Source of the DNA: a virus
Lineage: Duplodnaviria > Heunggongvirae > Uroviricota > Caudoviricetes
Length of the DNA: 15,401 nucleotides
IMG/VR virus record: IMGVR_UViG_2547132277_000010
Direction: 5' to 3' (one strand)
The notes beneath the pieces were generated by a model that was not told the origin of the DNA, did no database searches, and worked only from the letters and a program-made list of their open reading frames with translations. Within the stretch, counting starts at the first letter, position 1. Each line of letters starts with the position of its first letter. This document shows, piece after piece, positions 1,367 to 6,397 of this stretch. A program made the translations under genes and the position numbers.

Positions 1367-1930
1367 TCACTGATACCAGCACGGCGCTGTGCATCCCACA
1401 ACCGATGGAGATTTCTGGTTGGTATTTTCTGGTGATGGTTTGTTAACTGATGCTGGGATTGCCCATCCCGGCAGCGATGGAGGGAGCCAGTAAAATCCTG
1501 TTCCATCCTTCAGTTTTGCCCTGTGCCACCCCTGCTTTTTATCGAGAGATGTTTGTGCGAAACCTTCCTCAAGGTTATACAGATACCGACCGATTCCCCA
1601 CTGAACGGCAGCGCGCTTCATTGCACCGGAACGACCACCTTTGACGGCTTCTACCTGCGTGTTTTCAGCAGCATCCCATTTGGTTACCCATTCGGAATCA
1701 ATCTTTATCGATATGCCGCATTCAACGCCGCCGTTGTTGGGAATATCGCGGTATTCATTGCGCCATCCTGCTTTGCCGCAAACATCGTCCAGGCGTTTCA
1801 TGATTGCCCGGTTCGTGACATAAGCCAGCACCATAGCCCACACTTTGCCATCGCGTGTTTTACCGCTTTGCTGTATTCGCCATTCGATATCTTCAGGGCT
1901 GAATGGCTCATCGAATTTATTCAAATCCAT
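1367..1930 (-). CDS. Rad52/Rad22-family single-strand annealing protein (Sak-like recombinase), 187 aa
   Basis: ATG at 1930 preceded by GAGGTG. The translation has the Rad52/Sak-type N-terminal annealing-domain character (from memory). It occupies the bet position of a lambdoid pL operon. Confidence 0.8.
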   Translation of the reverse strand: MDLNKFDEPFSPEDIEWRIQQSGKTRDGKVWAMVLAYVTNRAIMKRLDDVCGKAGWRNEYRDIPNNGGVECGISIKIDSEWVTKWDAAENTQVEAVKGGRSGAMKRAAVQWGIGRYLYNLEEGFAQTSLDKKQGWHRAKLKDGTGFYWLPPSLPGWAIPASVNKPSPENTNQKSPSVVGCTAPCWYQ

Positions 1931-1938
1931 AATTCACC

Positions 1939-2109
1939 TCAGAATGGACATGGCCCAAGGAAATAACGCTGATTTAATACTTCGACTCGGGACAAATTAA
2001 GGCATACCCGCATTCCTTCGCGGTCACCATTATGGCGATACCAGAGAGCTTTCTGCGTGTACATGCGTCTCTGTAACTTGCTCTCCTTCACTGTGGTTGC
2101 AAGTGACAT
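1939..2109 (-). CDS. hypothetical small protein, 56 aa (MSLATTVKESKLQRRMYTQKALWYRHNGDREGMRVCLNLSRVEVLNQRYFLGPCPF)
   Basis: Translated by hand (below the track's size cutoff). ATG at 2109 preceded by AGGAGA with 5 nt spacing; its TGA lies inside the annealase RBS. Overlaps the 52 aa ORF by 80 nt in another frame. Confidence 0.4.
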   Translation of the reverse strand: MSLATTVKESKLQRRMYTQKALWYRHNGDREGMRVCLNLSRVEVLNQRYFLGPCPF

Positions 2110-2188
2110 GAATATCTCCTTCGTTACCGATTAAATCTTTCATCTGACGAATGAATTCTTCGTCTGACCAGTTATCTGTAAAACTCAT
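2030..2188 (-). CDS. hypothetical small acidic protein, 52 aa (MSFTDNWSDEEFIRQMKDLIGNEGDIHVTCNHSEGEQVTETHVHAESSLVSP)
   Basis: Translated by hand. Its ATG overlaps the TGA of the Kil-like ORF (ATGA), suggesting translational coupling. Sits in the lambda gam position. Confidence 0.4.
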   Translation of the reverse strand: MSFTDNWSDEEFIRQMKDLIGNEGDIHVTCNHSEGEQVTETHVHAESSLVSP

Positions 2189-2337
2189 TTCCTGCGATAC
2201 CACGGAAGGTTGATAGCTGATTTTATCGCTTTATTTGCTTCAAGCCACATTTTTGAATCACCAATAAATCTGGCTATTACTGCTTTGTTTTGTGCTGCAC
2301 GAAGCATCTGGTGATTGATGGCTATTTCATTGCGCAT
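2185..2337 (-). CDS. kil: Kil-like small protein, 50 aa (MRNEIAINHQMLRAAQNKAVIARFIGDSKMWLEANKAIKSAINLPWYRRK)
   Basis: Translated by hand. GGAGG lies 5 nt upstream of the ATG at 2337. It is the gene immediately after the cIII-like gene, as in lambda (cIII then kil), and has an FIGD-containing motif that I recall from lambda Kil. Recollection, not verified. Confidence 0.45.
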   Translation of the reverse strand: MRNEIAINHQMLRAAQNKAVIARFIGDSKMWLEANKAIKSAINLPWYRRK

Positions 2338-2456
2338 AACGCCTCCAGTTGTTTCTTTGCTGCTCTGATTAATTGTTTAACTCGGCGTGATAATTCAGAT
2401 TCGTGCGGGTAGAAAGCGGACATGACGCCGCTACCCGCGAGCTGAAAGTGCATCAT
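2322..2456 (-). CDS. cIII: cIII-like protein (FtsH/HflB inhibitor family), 44 aa (MMHFQLAGSGVMSAFYPHESELSRRVKQLIRAAKKQLEALCAMK)
   Basis: Translated by hand. AAGGAG lies 6 nt upstream of the ATG at 2456. The pattern LAG-x7-P-x-ES-x-L-x-R(I/V)-x-x-LIR parallels lambda CIII (AIAGWPVAGCPSESLLERITRKLRDGWKRL, from memory). Overlaps the kil-like ORF by 16 nt. Confidence 0.6.
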   Translation of the reverse strand: MMHFQLAGSGVMSAFYPHESELSRRVKQLIRAAKKQLEALCAMK

Positions 2457-2651: not shown

Positions 2652-2966
2652 TTAATAAAACACCCAATTTTCTGTTTCTTGGTTGTGTCCAAAGTTATAT
2701 TCAATATCTGGTGTTGATGTATCAATATTCTTCATCCCATCAACAAGAGTTGATACAACAGCCAAATCTTGTTTGATTCTCATCAAATGGTATTTCTTCC
2801 GGCGCAATAAACTTTCAATGGCAAGTTTCTTCGTCGGGAATGCAAAAGATCTTTCTGCATTTTTTGCTACTTTCTTAATTGCATATCTATTTCTCCTTTG
2901 TTTCCATTCCTGTAACCACTGATTTGGTGCTGGTTTAAAATTAACAATCCAATGCGCAGGAACCAA
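2652..2966 (-). CDS. hypothetical basic protein, 104 aa; doubtful start (TTG); may be the downstream half of a frameshifted gene together with 2867..3187
   Basis: The track ORF begins at TTG 2966 with no in-frame ATG until M62. The reading frame is open back to a stop at 2999..2997 and overlaps the 3' end of the 106 aa ORF. Confidence 0.3.
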   Translation of the reverse strand: MVPAHWIVNFKPAPNQWLQEWKQRRNRYAIKKVAKNAERSFAFPTKKLAIESLLRRKKYHLMRIKQDLAVVSTLVDGMKNIDTSTPDIEYNFGHNQETENWVFY

Positions 2967-3187
2967 CCATGCATAATGCTCTGTCTGATGAAAAGCTTAT
3001 ATTGAAGTGCGAATATTTTGATTCCATCTTCTTCAACTGTCGCTTGGAATCTCCAGAAAACAGGCATTCCATCATGTTCAGTTTCTGATTTAGGAAAAGG
3101 TACGCTCCATGATTTTGTCATATCTAACCTCAAATAAGTGGTTTGCTGCCAAAACAATGAACCATCCGGAAATTCCAGATAGTTCAT
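2867..3187 (-). CDS. hypothetical protein, 106 aa
   Basis: ATG at 3187 overlaps the TGA of the upstream 74 aa ORF (ATGA). Its last ~33 codons overlap the 104 aa ORF and look less protein-like. Confidence 0.5.
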   Translation of the reverse strand: MNYLEFPDGSLFWQQTTYLRLDMTKSWSVPFPKSETEHDGMPVFWRFQATVEEDGIKIFALQYKLFIRQSIMHGWFLRIGLLILNQHQISGYRNGNKGEIDMQLRK

Positions 3188-3411: not shown

Positions 3412-3795
3412 TTACCTGGCTGTCAGTTGTTTTGATTTCCGGTAGCCTGCTGCGTAAAGAGCTACATTTGGAAGACATACACCAGTTTCTGGTTGCTTAT
3501 GTCCAAACTCATTCGCGTACACAATGGCCGCTCGCTCCAGATTGCGTCTGTATTCTTTCTGTTGCCAGATCACGTCCTGTGCCATGAACTTAATTGGCTT
3601 AGCGTCTTCTATGCGCTCAGGCGTTTCGTGAGTACCTTTAGCCTGAATCTGCGCTCTGCTTAGAGTAGGGCGGTGTAATACTTCTGAACTTATTGCTTCT
3701 TCGCGGGCCAGCACGCCGTTAGCTAATGCCTTTGCCTTTAAACGCTCACGACGACGAGAACGTGAATTGCCTTTGAACTGAGTTCTGCGTGTCAT
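3412..3795 (-). CDS. N: N-type transcription antitermination protein (P22 gp24-like), 127 aa
   Basis: AGGAGG lies 5 nt upstream of the ATG at 3795. N-terminal arginine-rich motif (NSRSRRRERLKAKALA) and C-terminal LPNVALYAAGYRKSKQLTAR, matching the P22 gp24 C-terminus LPGVALYAAGHRKSKQITAR as I recall it. Confidence 0.85.
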   Translation of the reverse strand: MTRRTQFKGNSRSRRRERLKAKALANGVLAREEAISSEVLHRPTLSRAQIQAKGTHETPERIEDAKPIKFMAQDVIWQQKEYRRNLERAAIVYANEFGHKQPETGVCLPNVALYAAGYRKSKQLTAR

Positions 3796-4256: not shown

Positions 4257-4286
4257 AGAAAACCCGGCGCTGAGGCCGGGTTTTTC
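4257..4286 (-). terminator. bidirectional intrinsic terminator (AAAA-AACCCGGC-GCTGAG-GCCGGGTT-TTTTT) ending the cI / accessory-gene operon
   Basis: 8 bp GC-rich stem with runs on both sides, placed directly after the stop of the 258 aa ORF. Confidence 0.65.
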
Positions 4287-5062
4287 TAGGCTACCAGAGA
4301 CTCAATCCAAGAGTCTCTGGTATGGAATGGCAACACTCGTGCGGTATCATTAAATAGTAGTGATAGTTGCTGTAGCTCAGGTGTTAACCCATCGCTGTCA
4401 ACTATTACAAATCTATTGTTTATGTCAGGAACGACCTGACTTAAGTCAACAATCTTCCCAACTGTTGAGTGGGCAGTATTCCATCCCTTACTGCTGGCAA
4501 GGCTTACCGTAAACCCGCGTTTTGGTGGTATTAGTCGAGACTCATTCCTTAGCGTTAACGGAACAGTAATGTTATGCCCACTAATACCTTTCACTTTTTC
4601 CTTTAAGGCTAGTCGCTTCCCAAGCCCTGCTGATTTTAAGTAACTGATTACACATTTTTCGAACTTATCGTCTTTGACCTCAGCATACCAATCAGCAGTT
4701 TGGGCGGATGCAAGAATCCCACCACGAATAACATTTGCAGTTACCTGTCCAACGGACGACTCATCTGCCCACGCAGATATCTCTCCAGAGTCATTTAATG
4801 AAATTCCTTGCGAAGCGAGTGATGACCTGATCAGATCAATTTTCTTTTTAGTCAGGTGGATGCCGCGTGATTCAATATTCATCAATGTATCGCAGTAGTC
4901 TGTAACCCTATACTGACCACTCATCTCTTGAACGAATACACTTATCTGCTCACAATCATCGTAGTATGTGAATGGACTAATAACGCGCAGCAACGTGTCG
5001 CTCATTGGGTGGCATTCAAACCCGAGCTTAGATATGACTGTTGAACACGTTACATTTCCCAT
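4286..5062 (-). CDS. hypothetical protein, 258 aa; distal gene of a two-gene accessory cassette in the rexAB-equivalent position
   Basis: ATG at 5062 lies 10 nt upstream of the stop of the 180 aa ORF (13 nt overlap); AGGT is upstream. No family recognised and no obvious transmembrane segments. The locus is visibly more AT-rich than flanking phage DNA. Confidence 0.75.
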   Translation of the reverse strand: MGNVTCSTVISKLGFECHPMSDTLLRVISPFTYYDDCEQISVFVQEMSGQYRVTDYCDTLMNIESRGIHLTKKKIDLIRSSLASQGISLNDSGEISAWADESSVGQVTANVIRGGILASAQTADWYAEVKDDKFEKCVISYLKSAGLGKRLALKEKVKGISGHNITVPLTLRNESRLIPPKRGFTVSLASSKGWNTAHSTVGKIVDLSQVVPDINNRFVIVDSDGLTPELQQLSLLFNDTARVLPFHTRDSWIESLVA

Positions 5063-5592
5063 GATAACTGACCTGATTTATCTTGATTAGGTAAAGGTGG
5101 GCTGCCTTCATATATGATATTAAGCGCCTCGCAAAAATAATTCCAGTAGCCAAAAAAATCATCTGGCTTGATGTTCGTTTCAAGCTTAAGTGCAATTTCT
5201 TCCCCAGCTGATTCGAAGTACATGTGATAGTGAGGACCTCGAGCCACCTCAACAAAATCTGGATGGTTCACTATAGATTTATTACGGTGTGGCTTGTTAT
5301 CCGCAGGGTACGGATCAAGCGCGTAAATGCGCCTGTCATGAAGAAACATCACAAATGAAATCTTCACTATATCCACCCCTTCAACGATAGGAGGACGCCA
5401 GTGAAGCATAAATCTTATGCCTGTGATTGGGTTGCCAATTTCATCAAAAGCTTTGAGATCCAATTTAAACCAGATTGGGGTTCGTCCCTCACTTCCGGTC
5501 CATGTAACTCCGCTAAAAGTTACTTTTTTCAAGCGAGTAATAGCTTGGTCAACCTCTTTCTGGGTAGGCTTAAAGTCGCCTTTTTTAGCCAC
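5050..5592 (-). CDS. hypothetical protein, 180 aa; proximal gene of the accessory cassette downstream of cI
   Basis: Longest ORF begins at GTG 5592 with no nearby in-frame ATG; GGTGA lies about 9 nt upstream. Same strand as cI, 97 bp downstream of its stop. No family recognised. Confidence 0.7.
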   Translation of the reverse strand: MAKKGDFKPTQKEVDQAITRLKKVTFSGVTWTGSEGRTPIWFKLDLKAFDEIGNPITGIRFMLHWRPPIVEGVDIVKISFVMFLHDRRIYALDPYPADNKPHRNKSIVNHPDFVEVARGPHYHMYFESAGEEIALKLETNIKPDDFFGYWNYFCEALNIIYEGSPPLPNQDKSGQLSWEM

Positions 5593-5689: not shown

Positions 5690-6397
5690 TCACGAACTTT
5701 TCAGCCACTCCCTTGCCTCGATGTCATCCAGATGGCGAGATTGCTTCAGAATACCAGCCACATACTCCACCTTTGCTACTTGATGATAAGGCAACGTTAT
5801 TGGCCTATGGTCCTGGTTGATGCTTGTAAACTGGTATTCTCCGTCTCTGTCATAGCCAAGAACTTTGATCATGTTGTGTCCTTCAACGGTTCTGACAAAC
5901 ACCTCATCACCCGGGAATACTTTGGTGTTAGGCTCAATGAGTACATATTCTCCTGATTTTATTCTAGGCCACATGCTGTCTCCTTTCACACGAAGACCAA
6001 AGGCATCTGGATCATCGCTATAAATCTTGAGCCACCCATCGCGCTCTTCGGTCATCTCGATGGCACCATCAACACCAAGAATTGCCTCACCAACCACGCG
6101 CACTAACCCTTTTTTTAATTTGCCAACAAATGAAAGAGTATCTTCATCATTCGCTCCATTTAACGAAGTGCCGTGCTGAAGCCAAACAACATCAACGTTT
6201 AGAAATTTCGCAAGCGCATTCATTTTTTCCTGACGCGGTAAAGACTCAGCATTAAACCACTTGCTAACGCCTTTGGACGAAAGAGAAAGGGCACGGGCTA
6301 TAGCCATTCCCCTACCATGTTCATCAAGACCAGCTTCTTTACAGGCTTGCGCTAGCCGCTGGGCGAATTCTTTGCGCACTTTTTCATTCTGAACCAT
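5690..6397 (-). CDS. cI: CI-type prophage repressor (N-terminal HTH, C-terminal LexA-like S24 peptidase domain), 235 aa
   Basis: HTH region MAIARALSLSSKGVSKWFNAES and C-terminal GDSMWP...VLIEP motifs typical of autocleaving repressors. Divergent from the cro-like gene. No Shine-Dalgarno before the ATG, consistent with a leaderless pRM transcript as in lambda. Confidence 0.9.
   Translation of the reverse strand: MVQNEKVRKEFAQRLAQACKEAGLDEHGRGMAIARALSLSSKGVSKWFNAESLPRQEKMNALAKFLNVDVVWLQHGTSLNGANDEDTLSFVGKLKKGLVRVVGEAILGVDGAIEMTEERDGWLKIYSDDPDAFGLRVKGDSMWPRIKSGEYVLIEPNTKVFPGDEVFVRTVEGHNMIKVLGYDRDGEYQFTSINQDHRPITLPYHQVAKVEYVAGILKQSRHLDDIEAREWLKSS

What the first reader, a model, noticed from the sequence alone, without database searches (positions are those of the whole stretch)
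1939..2188. Two overlapping small ORFs in the gam slot between kil and the annealase
Neither ORF (52 aa acidic; 56 aa basic and Cys-containing) was in the track because both are under 60 aa, yet each has coupling signals: ATGA overlap with kil for one, AGGAGA RBS for the other. They overlap by 80 nt in different frames. In lambda this slot holds gam, a RecBCD inhibitor. Small acidic proteins here could be nuclease inhibitors (DNA mimics) supporting the Rad52-like annealase, which has no exonuclease partner in this window.
Basis: inference. Interest (0 to 1): 0.45.

Follow-up and report, generated by a model that had tools for sequence, protein, structure and literature searches.

The report
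Two small genes beside phage annealase
The two overlapping mini-genes are real and were already annotated in phages such as Sf6, HK97 and HK620; they sit at the edge of the phage recombination module, their function is unknown, and nothing found here supports the proposed Gam-like nuclease inhibitor.

Summary
On the minus strand, ORF-A (2188..2030, 52 aa, acidic) starts in an ATGA overlap with kil. ORF-B (2109..1939, 56 aa, basic) has an AAGGAG site 6 nt upstream. They overlap by 80 nt, and B ends 8 nt before the Rad52-like annealase gene.

Both are known annotated ORFs: Sf6 gp30/gp29, HK97 gp42.1/gp42, PHROGs 2123/1723.

Across diverged relatives, B is under purifying selection along its whole length (dN/dS 0.10 outside the overlap, 0.24 inside). 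A is constrained only in its first 26 codons (0.32). Its overlapping tail follows B's frame (2.14).

Each occurs without the other. B is a homolog of HK620 HkaM (hhalign 98.5%). Its model is a confident two-helix hairpin, and every B sequence ends in Pro-Phe. In all 195 loci examined it lies 7-16 nt upstream of an annealase gene of any of three Pfam families (Rad52-like, ERF, Sak4-type AAA_24).

A resembles P22 Arf in position, size, charge and one short motif, but homology is not shown.

The Gam/DNA-mimic reading is unsupported. Relatives carry Abc2 as the anti-RecBCD function. This prophage's recombination module is truncated.

This is a known kind of gene with unknown function; interest is modest.

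The parts
2322..2456 (-). cIII gene (44 aa), upstream in the PL operon
   Evidence: Pfam cIII PF08134, E 2e-30
2185..2337 (-). kil gene (50 aa). Its TGA stop overlaps the ORF-A ATG (ATGA).
   Evidence: Pfam Lambda_Kil, E 5e-20; PHROG 2055; sequence read
2030..2188 (-). ORF-A: 52-aa acidic small protein (Sf6 gp30 / HK97 gp42.1 family, PHROG 2123), Arf-like by position
   Evidence: PHROG 2123, E 1e-41. Annotated in Sf6, mEp235 and HK75. 98% identical to Sf6 gp30.
2110..2188 (-). The constrained part of ORF-A: codons 1-26 (MSFTDNWSDEEFIRQMKDLIGNEGDI), an acidic module with a predicted helix at residues 9-20
   Evidence: Frame-A periodicity: 8/26, 9/25 and 19/25 variable sites at codon positions 1, 2 and 3. 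dN/dS is 0.32 in frame A against about 1.2 in the other frames. AF2 places a helix at 9-20. The module also occurs fused to other tails without ORF-B (P0079/P0081, L193).
2030..2109 (-). 80-nt overlap: ORF-A codons 27-52 plus its stop, read +1 as ORF-B codons 1-27. It evolves under ORF-B's frame.
   Evidence: Variable sites peak at B's third codon position (21/24) and are fewest at A's third position (9/25). dN/dS is 0.24 for B and 2.14 for A. A's frame stays open in 39-71% of synonymous reshuffles of B.
2116..2121 (-). Shine-Dalgarno AAGGAG for ORF-B, 6 nt before its ATG, encoded within ORF-A codons N-E-G-D
   Evidence: Sequence. The GAAGGAG core is kept in diverged lineages, where A reads ..SEGG...
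1939..2109 (-). ORF-B: 56-aa basic two-helix hairpin ending ..NQRYFLGPCPF. HkaM family (HK620 HkaM, Sf6 gp29, HK97 gp42, PHROG 1723).
   Evidence: PHROG 1723, E 9e-36. hhalign to HkaM 98.5%, E 2e-15. dN/dS 0.10 outside the overlap and 0.24 inside. AF2 pLDDT 90.5 with helices 7-26 and 30-51. 100% identical to Sf6 gp29.
1935..1940 (-). GAGGTG Shine-Dalgarno of the annealase gene, spanning ORF-B's stop codon, with an 8-nt intergenic gap
   Evidence: Sequence. TGA-GGTG or TAA-AAGGTG is found in nearly all relatives.
1367..1930 (-). Rad52-like single-strand annealing protein gene, C-terminally truncated (187 aa against 235 aa in relatives)
   Evidence: Pfam Rad52_Rad22, E 3e-26. Full-length homologs. 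The truncation junction is absent from 5,426 complete E. coli genomes.

Best explanation
The interval holds two genuine small protein genes at the promoter-proximal edge of a lambdoid recombination (Rec) module. They are translated in a coupled chain: kil, then A, then B, then the annealase.

ORF-B belongs to the HkaM family. It is a ~56-62 aa basic helical hairpin with a flexible tail that always ends in Pro-Phe. Its gene always sits immediately upstream of the phage single-strand annealing protein (SAP) gene, whatever the SAP type.

ORF-A is an Arf-like acidic peptide. Its functional part is the first ~26 residues, which form a short helix. The rest of its length arises because its reading frame runs on into ORF-B.

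Shown here:
- both are coding
- the family assignments
- the modular independence of A and B
- the strict adjacency of B to SAP genes
- the indifference of B to SAP type

Inferred: both act as accessory factors for SAP-dependent recombination during phage growth. B most likely acts through something common to all SAP systems, such as SSB-coated ssDNA or a host end-processing factor, rather than through one SAP fold. The homolog HkaM was dispensable for oligonucleotide recombineering, so B is not part of the core annealing reaction.
For: Coding status:
- dN/dS for B is 0.10 outside the overlap and 0.24 inside. For A's first 26 codons it is 0.32, against about 1.2 in the control frames.
- Codon-position periodicity agrees with these values (66 unique sequences, 7 lineage representatives).

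Independence of the two genes:
- B occurs without A in L174, L175, L094-096, L099, L194, L195, L199 and HK620.
- A's N-terminal module occurs without B, upstream of a RecT module (L193).

Family assignment of B:
- HK620 HkaM aligns to the B profile over its full length at 98.5% probability, E 2e-15.
- Relatives at 38-48% identity keep S10, A21, E43, F50, P55 and F56.
- All 26 distinct B sequences end in PF, and the Pro codon varies synonymously.

Linkage to annealase genes:
- In all 195 loci with enough downstream sequence, a SAP gene starts 7-16 nt after B's stop. Many of these loci are the same contigs fetched twice; the de-duplicated table has about 110.
- The downstream genes are Rad52_Rad22, ERF (two sequence types) and AAA_24/Sak4 (two sequence types).
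- One B subtype pairs with all five SAP sequence types. The window's subtype pairs with ERF (39 loci) and Rad52-like (41 loci).

Structure:
- B is modelled as a hairpin at pLDDT 90.5.
- A has one helix and a disordered tail.

Literature:
- P22 Arf and Abc1 aid recombination but their mechanisms are unknown (PMC12315714).
- hkaM was first annotated as 'arf' by position.
- The sak4-ssb pair alone reproduced the recombineering level of the whole HK620 module (PMC5928155).
Against: - There is no functional test of either protein. The link to recombination rests on gene position alone.
- HkaM added nothing to Sak4+SSB oligonucleotide recombineering.
- Homology between A and P22 Arf is not established. 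ORF-A has no PF17585 hit, and hhalign gives probability 1.2%.
- Only one divergent A-family member reaches PHROG Arf, at E 8e-4.
- B's fold matches nothing informative in PDB or BFVD; all E-values exceed 0.3.
- This prophage's Rec module is truncated, so the two genes may be non-functional passengers here.
Confidence: 0.6

Rival explanations
1. Nuclease inhibitor or DNA mimic. The acidic ORF-A, or both proteins, would block RecBCD or restriction enzymes to protect the recombination substrates, doing the job Gam does in lambda.
For: - ORF-A carries about -9 net charge and sits between kil and the annealase.
- A structural paper speculates that P22 Arf may be a DNA mimic because it is small and acidic (PMC9836394).
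- This window has no abc2 or gam gene.
Against: - Neither ORF matches Gam or any Pfam, NCBIfam or PADLOC family.
- Full-length relatives with the same A and B already encode Abc2.
- Only about 26 residues of A are constrained.
- A's tail shows dN/dS 2.14 in its own frame and is predicted disordered.
- The tail's acidity exceeds expectation only marginally in some lineages (P about 0.05) and not in others (up to 0.88).
- B is basic.
Confidence: 0.1
2. The position is only operon packing. A and B would be host-takeover or anti-defence small proteins of the early-left operon. Their adjacency to annealase genes would reflect a recombination hotspot or module boundary, not a shared function.
For: - Mosaic breakpoints fall exactly at B's stop codon. 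Identical B proteins are followed by either ERF or Rad52-like genes.
- HkaM had no effect in the recombineering assay.
- A's N-terminal module also follows cIII or kil in a RecT-type module where a different 103-aa gene comes next.
Against: - Every one of the 195 loci with enough downstream sequence keeps B 7-16 nt upstream of a SAP gene. This includes relatives at 33-48% identity in Erwinia and Kluyvera phages and in HK620.
- The gene upstream of B varies freely.
- That asymmetry is what functional or translational linkage to the SAP gene would produce.
Confidence: 0.2
3. Only ORF-B encodes a functional protein. ORF-A would be a translated coupling spacer that carries ribosomes from kil or cIII onto B's start, and its peptide would have no function of its own.
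For: - A's start overlaps the kil stop as ATGA.
- B's Shine-Dalgarno site lies inside A's codons.
- A's tail shows no selection in its own frame, and its openness is not significant.
Against: - A's first 26 codons show amino-acid-level constraint (dN/dS 0.32).
- The motif (W/M)(S/T)(D/E)(D/E)xF is kept at 37-65% identity.
- The module recurs with unrelated tails in loci that lack B.
Confidence: 0.08
4. A single 82-aa A-B fusion protein made by programmed +1 frameshifting within the overlap.
For: Protein databases hold 81-82 aa products that join A's N-terminus to B's C-terminus (P0001, P0005, P0021, P0023, P0024, P0027, P0031, P0070).
Against: - The A-to-B switch point is different in each such protein.
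- Nearly all are singletons from raw assemblies, which is the pattern expected from indels.
- B has its own strong ribosome-binding site and occurs alone.
- No conserved slippery site or RNA structure is present (fold z-score -0.07; no Rfam hit).
Confidence: 0.02

Closest known systems
HK620 HkaM (NP_112046), with Sf6 gp29, HK97 gp42 and PHROG 1723
   Same: - ORF-B is 100% identical to Sf6 gp29.
- It aligns with HkaM over the full length (33% identity, hhalign 98.5%).
- Size, basic charge, terminal Pro-Phe and position immediately upstream of the annealase gene are all the same.
   Different: - HkaM precedes a Sak4 (RecA-like) annealase and follows kil directly, with no ORF-A.
- Here B precedes a Rad52-like annealase and is overlapped by ORF-A.
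- HkaM's tail reads FLSVPSELPF rather than FLGPCPF.
- The PHROG label 'recombinase' rests on no experiment that I could find.
P22 Arf (accessory recombination function, Pfam PF17585, PHROG 2445)
   Same: - ORF-A has the same slot between kil and the annealase gene.
- It has a similar size (47 against 52 aa) and strong acidity.
- It shares the N-terminal motif (F/W)SDEEFI.
- One A-family member hits the PHROG Arf profile at E 8e-4 over residues 4-27.
   Different: - ORF-A does not match PF17585.
- The profile-profile comparison is insignificant (probability 1.2%).
- Arf directly abuts erf, whereas here ORF-B lies between A and the annealase.
- Arf's conserved C-terminal half (QQINLAAERQN..WDEFAGYYS) has no counterpart in ORF-A.
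Lambda Gam (the gene in this slot in lambda)
   Same: Only the map position between kil and the annealase gene (established lambda gene order).
   Different: - No sequence similarity and no Pfam hit.
- Gam is about 138 aa and dimeric, according to the literature summarised in PMC12315714.
- Relatives of this module use Abc2 as their anti-RecBCD function.
Sf6 gp30 / HK97 gp42.1 (PHROG 2123), and the short variants in PHROG 17766
   Same: - ORF-A is 98% identical to Sf6 gp30.
- PHROG 2123 matches at E 1e-41.
- The same N-terminal 21 residues occur in the 31-35 aa variants.
   Different: The short variants end in an unrelated acidic tail (..EQEKDDDSD..) and lie in a RecT-type module without ORF-B.

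Membership tests
HkaM family / PHROG 1723 (ORF-B) | Full-length sequence homology to HK620 HkaM and to the PHROG 1723 profile | tested here: met
   PHROG 1723, E 9.4e-36. hhalign of profile A5 against HkaM gives 98.5% probability, E 2e-15 over 59 columns. BLASTP E 9e-10.
HkaM family / PHROG 1723 (ORF-B) | Conserved C-terminal motif ..N-x-(R/K)-x-F-L-G-x-x-P-F-COOH and invariant S10, A21, E43 | tested here: met
   Alignments A4 and A5. All 26 distinct B proteins end in PF. The Pro codon varies synonymously.
HkaM family / PHROG 1723 (ORF-B) | Gene lies immediately upstream of a single-strand annealing protein gene | tested here: met
   The gap is 8 nt in the window and 7-16 nt in all 195 loci with enough downstream sequence. 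The SAP families were confirmed by Pfam.
HkaM family / PHROG 1723 (ORF-B) | Biochemical activity | not testable with these tools
   No activity is known. HkaM was dispensable for Sak4 oligonucleotide recombineering (PMC5928155).
P22 Arf (Pfam PF17585) (ORF-A) | Match to the Phage_Arf profile | tested here: not met
   No Pfam hit at E <= 0.1. hhalign of A3 against A2 gives probability 1.2%, E 0.044.
P22 Arf (Pfam PF17585) (ORF-A) | Small acidic protein encoded between kil and the annealase gene | tested here: met
   52 aa with about -9 net charge, at 2030-2188. The P22 map shows arf between kil and erf.
P22 Arf (Pfam PF17585) (ORF-A) | Stimulates annealase-dependent recombination in vivo | not testable with these tools
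   Requires phage genetics. For P22 Arf itself, see PMC12315714.
Lambda Gam / RecBCD inhibitors (either ORF) | Sequence or fold similarity to Gam, GamL, Abc2 or MuGam | tested here: not met
   No Pfam, NCBIfam or PADLOC hits. B's model matched nothing in PDB or BFVD at E < 0.3.
Lambda Gam / RecBCD inhibitors (either ORF) | Inhibition of RecBCD nuclease | not testable with these tools
   Requires a biochemical or plating assay.
DNA-mimic proteins (ORF-A) | A folded or extended surface of conserved acidic residues that imitates the DNA backbone | tested here: inconclusive
   The AF2 model has mean pLDDT 61.5, one helix at 9-20 and a disordered remainder. The tail is not conserved in A's frame. 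The tail's charge is only marginally unusual.
PHROG 2123 (Sf6 gp30 / HK97 gp42.1) (ORF-A) | Full-length profile match | tested here: met
   E 1e-41 over residues 1-52. 98% identical to Sf6 gp30.

The most novel reading that the evidence does not exclude
The HkaM-family protein (ORF-B) may act as a mimic of the SSB tail tip. Bacterial and phage SSBs recruit partners through a C-terminal ..IPF or ..PPF tip, and the HK620 SSB tip (NDYPPF) is needed to stimulate Sak4 (PMC5928155). B's flexible tail always ends in Pro-Phe-COOH. It could dock into the same pockets on annealases or on host enzymes that bind SSB, such as ExoI, RecJ, RecQ, RecO or PriA. That would steer SSB-coated ssDNA towards the phage annealase. 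It would also explain why one small protein accompanies three unrelated annealase families and does not co-vary with them.
Probability: 0.12. Interest if true: 0.65.

Novelty: already known. Interest (0 to 1): 0.3.

Why it matters
Both ORFs are already deposited as hypothetical genes in several phage genomes, so the feature itself is not new. RefSeq E. coli annotation often omits them: many hits list only kil and the Rad52-like gene over this region, even though the region occurs in 1,157 of 5,426 complete genomes.

The analysis adds three points.
- There is now evolutionary evidence that both are translated.
- ORF-B joins the orphan HkaM family.
- That family is strictly adjacent to annealase genes of every type, and indifferent to which type.

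I found no description of this pattern in the papers I could read. It marks HkaM-like proteins as candidate general accessory factors of phage recombination systems, which are widely used for recombineering. It also gives a worked case of an overlapping gene pair in which only one frame carries the constraint.

Tried and rejected
- **RNA element instead of ORFs.** No Rfam family reached its gathering score anywhere in the window. The 276-nt transcript folds no better than shuffles (z -0.07).
- **Fold identification of B.** Foldseek against PDB and BFVD returned only generic helical hairpins, all at E > 0.3. A sequence-profile search of PDB returned one designed repeat protein at E 0.008.
- **A as a P22 Arf homolog.** A direct profile-profile test was insignificant.
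- **Selection to keep A's tail open.** Synonymous reshuffles of B leave frame A open for at least 26 codons in 39-71% of trials.
- **Selection for an acidic tail.** Results were inconsistent between lineages (P from 0.05 to 0.88).
- **B fused to larger proteins.** A HMMER search of 1.84 billion representative proteins found only 24 hits. The credible ones were all 42-71 aa. The longer hits were repeat-rich proteins matching short stretches.
- **Search problems.** The first IMG/VR scan returned 80 loci all identical in B, so divergent queries were needed. One alignment was too divergent to scan with.
- **Literature.** Searches for gp42.1 and for HkaM found nothing beyond Hutinet et al. 2018.

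Full report
**Observation**

All genes in this part of the window are on the minus strand.

- ORF-A runs from ATG 2188 to TAA 2030. It is 52 aa with 11 acidic and 2 basic residues.
- ORF-B runs from ATG 2109 to TGA 1939. It is 56 aa with 10 basic and 4 acidic residues and two Cys.
- They share 80 nt (2030-2109), and B is in the +1 frame relative to A.
- The stop codon of kil (Pfam Lambda_Kil, E 5e-20) overlaps A's start as ATGA.
- AAGGAG lies 6 nt before B's ATG, inside A's codons N-E-G-D.
- B's stop is followed by 8 nt and then the ATG of a Rad52_Rad22-family annealase (E 3e-26). The annealase's GAGGTG ribosome-binding site spans B's stop codon.

**Context**

Pfam places these genes in the early-left operon of a lambdoid prophage. 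The order is:

- cI-like repressor (5690-6397)
- two genes in the rexAB position
- N (3412-3795)
- cIII (2322-2456)
- kil
- A
- B
- annealase (1367-1930)
- a DUF550/DUF551 gene
- DUF4752
- an AlpA-like excisionase at the window edge

**Already annotated**

- The 351-nt region occurs in 1,157 of 5,426 complete E. coli genomes. RefSeq often lists only kil and the annealase there.
- In phage records both ORFs are annotated: Sf6 gp30/gp29, mEp235 gp34/gp33, and HK97 gp42.1/gp42. HK75 annotates only the A homolog.
- ORF-B is 100% identical to Sf6 gp29, and ORF-A is 98% identical to Sf6 gp30.
- Both match PHROG families: 2123 at E 1e-41 and 1723 at E 9e-36. Both families are labelled 'recombinase', and I found no experimental basis for that label.
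- Neither ORF matches Pfam, NCBIfam or PADLOC.

**Are both frames really coding?**

I collected 199 related loci from IMG/VR, GTDB genomes and GenBank phages. From these I extracted 66 distinct A+B sequences without indels, falling into seven lineages below 95% nucleotide identity.

| Segment | Where variable sites concentrate | dN/dS |
|---|---|---|
| A-only | A's third codon position (19/25, against 8/26 and 9/25) | 0.32 in frame A; about 1.2 in the other two frames |
| B-only | B's third codon position (26/30; 5/29 at position 2) | 0.10 in frame B |
| Overlap | B's third position (21/24); fewest at A's third position (9/25) | 0.24 in frame B; 2.14 in frame A |

For comparison, frame A gives 2.91 in the B-only segment, where A is not translated.

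- B is therefore a constrained protein along its whole length.
- A is constrained only in its first 26 codons.
- Given B's protein sequence, synonymous reshuffling leaves frame A open for at least 26 codons in 39-71% of trials. The persistence of A's tail is not evidence of selection.
- The tail's net acidity is marginally high in two lineages (P about 0.05) and unremarkable in the others (up to 0.88).

**Independence of the two genes**

- B occurs with no A homolog in many lineages. The upstream neighbour is then kil, a 254-291 aa protein, a DUF551-like gene or something else.
- A's N-terminal 17-21 residues occur fused to an unrelated short acidic tail (31-35 aa proteins P0078, P0079, P0081). 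That variant is coupled to a cIII-like gene and followed by a 103-aa ORF and RecT, with no B present.
- The homology break just upstream of A's ATG in such loci supports ATG 2188 as the start, rather than GTG 2203.

**What ORF-B is**

- A HMMER search of 1.84 billion representative proteins found a small family of 56-60 aa proteins down to 38% identity.
- The shared pattern is ..ES..R...A..(Y/W)R..G.R......L..A..E..N...FLG..PF.
- S10, A21, E43, F50, P55 and F56 are invariant.
- HK620 HkaM aligns to the family profile over its full length (hhalign 98.5%, E 2e-15; 33% identity to the window protein).
- AlphaFold2 gives a confident hairpin (pLDDT 90.5, helices 7-26 and 30-51) with a less ordered five-residue tail.
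- Fold searches returned only generic hairpins.

**Linkage of B to annealase genes**

- In all 195 loci with enough downstream sequence, a SAP gene starts 7-16 nt after B's stop. Many loci are the same contigs fetched twice; the de-duplicated table has about 110.
- Pfam assigns the downstream genes to Rad52_Rad22, ERF (two sequence types) and AAA_24/Sak4 (two sequence types).
- The window's B subtype is followed by ERF in 39 de-duplicated loci and by the Rad52-like gene in 41.
- One other B subtype is followed by all five SAP sequence types.
- Mosaic breakpoints fall at B's stop codon.
- All 26 distinct B proteins end in Pro-Phe, and the Pro codon varies synonymously, so the constraint is on the protein.

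**What ORF-A is**

- In P22 the same slot holds arf, a 47-aa acidic gene.
- ORF-A shares the motif (F/W)SDEEFI with Arf.
- One divergent A-family member reaches the PHROG Arf profile at E 8e-4.
- ORF-A itself does not hit Pfam PF17585, and the profile-profile comparison is insignificant (probability 1.2%).
- AlphaFold2 predicts one helix (residues 9-20) and a disordered remainder (mean pLDDT 61.5).
- I therefore call A 'Arf-like' by position, size, charge and motif, and do not call it a member of the Arf family.

**Literature**

- Arf's small size and acidity 'hint that it might be a DNA mimic' (PMC9836394). That is speculation, not data.
- hkaM was first annotated as 'arf' by position, then declared an orphan of unknown function.
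- The whole HK620 module (sak4, ssb, abc2, hkaM) gave 210-fold recombineering, and sak4+ssb alone reproduced it. HkaM is therefore dispensable for oligonucleotide annealing at the fork.
- The C-terminal NDYPPF of that SSB was required for the stimulation (PMC5928155).

**Interpretation**

- The best-supported reading is that A and B are conserved, translationally coupled small accessory genes at the promoter-proximal edge of the Rec module.
- B does not co-vary with SAP type. It therefore probably acts through something common to all these systems rather than through one annealase fold.
- This functional step is inferred, not shown.
- The Gam/nuclease-inhibitor reading lacks support. Full-length relatives already carry abc2 downstream of the annealase and SSB. 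B is basic, and only a 26-residue stretch of A is constrained.
- The annealase here has no exonuclease partner partly because modules of this type use host RecBCD redirected by Abc2 (PMC5928155).
- It is also because this prophage's module is truncated. The annealase has lost about 48 C-terminal residues at a junction near 1399-1402, and no SSB or abc2 gene follows. No complete E. coli genome contains that junction.

**Verdict**

The ORFs are already-known hypothetical genes. The useful additions are the per-frame selection analysis, the assignment of ORF-B to the HkaM family, and that family's strict adjacency to annealase genes regardless of type. The most novel reading still open is that the invariant Pro-Phe terminus imitates the SSB tail tip. 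It is untested, and I give it about 12%.

Noticed in passing
window 1367-1506 (junction near 1399-1402): The Rad52-like annealase is 187 aa here, against 235 aa in mEp235, Sf6 and HK75. Homology to the full-length gene ends near 1399-1402. The 3' end of the annealase gene overlaps a DUF550/DUF551 gene (1051-1506) by 140 nt. None of 5,426 complete E. coli genomes contains this junction. No SSB, exonuclease or abc2 gene follows, so the Rec module looks deleted or decayed, or the junction could be an assembly join.
   Followed up: partly
window 4286-5592, minus strand: Two overlapping genes lie between the cI-like repressor and N, which is the rexAB slot. One is a 258-aa DUF1828 protein (4286-5062) and the other a 180-aa protein with a weak DUF6978 hit (5050-5592). 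They weakly match both components of the PADLOC candidate defence system PDC-M24 (B at E 5e-7, A at E 4e-4).
   Followed up: partly
protein database entries P0001, P0005, P0021, P0023, P0024, P0027, P0031, P0070 (correspond to window 1939-2188): These 81-82 aa 'fusion' proteins join ORF-A's N-terminus to ORF-B's C-terminus, and the frame switch falls at a different place in each. Most are singletons from raw assemblies, so they are probably indel errors. P0021 is recorded on 36 contigs and so is probably a real frameshift allele in one lineage.
   Followed up: partly
window 2652-3187, minus strand: Two overlapping ORFs (104 and 106 aa) lie between N and cIII. Neither has a Pfam or PADLOC match. 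This looks like an uncharacterised insert in the early-left operon.
   Followed up: no
L001 818-1324 (mEp235 SSB): In the annotated SSB of mEp235, the canonical DFDDDIPF tail is followed by 17 further residues (APVTLPFPRHAIHAI) before the stop. The SSB tip would therefore be internal if the annotation is right.
   Followed up: no
proteins P0133 and P0139: Two larger proteins (176 and 282 aa) contain tandem repeats of ..RSEALNQ(R/Q)Y.LG.., which resembles ORF-B's C-terminal motif. This is probably a chance similarity of a short repeat.
   Followed up: no
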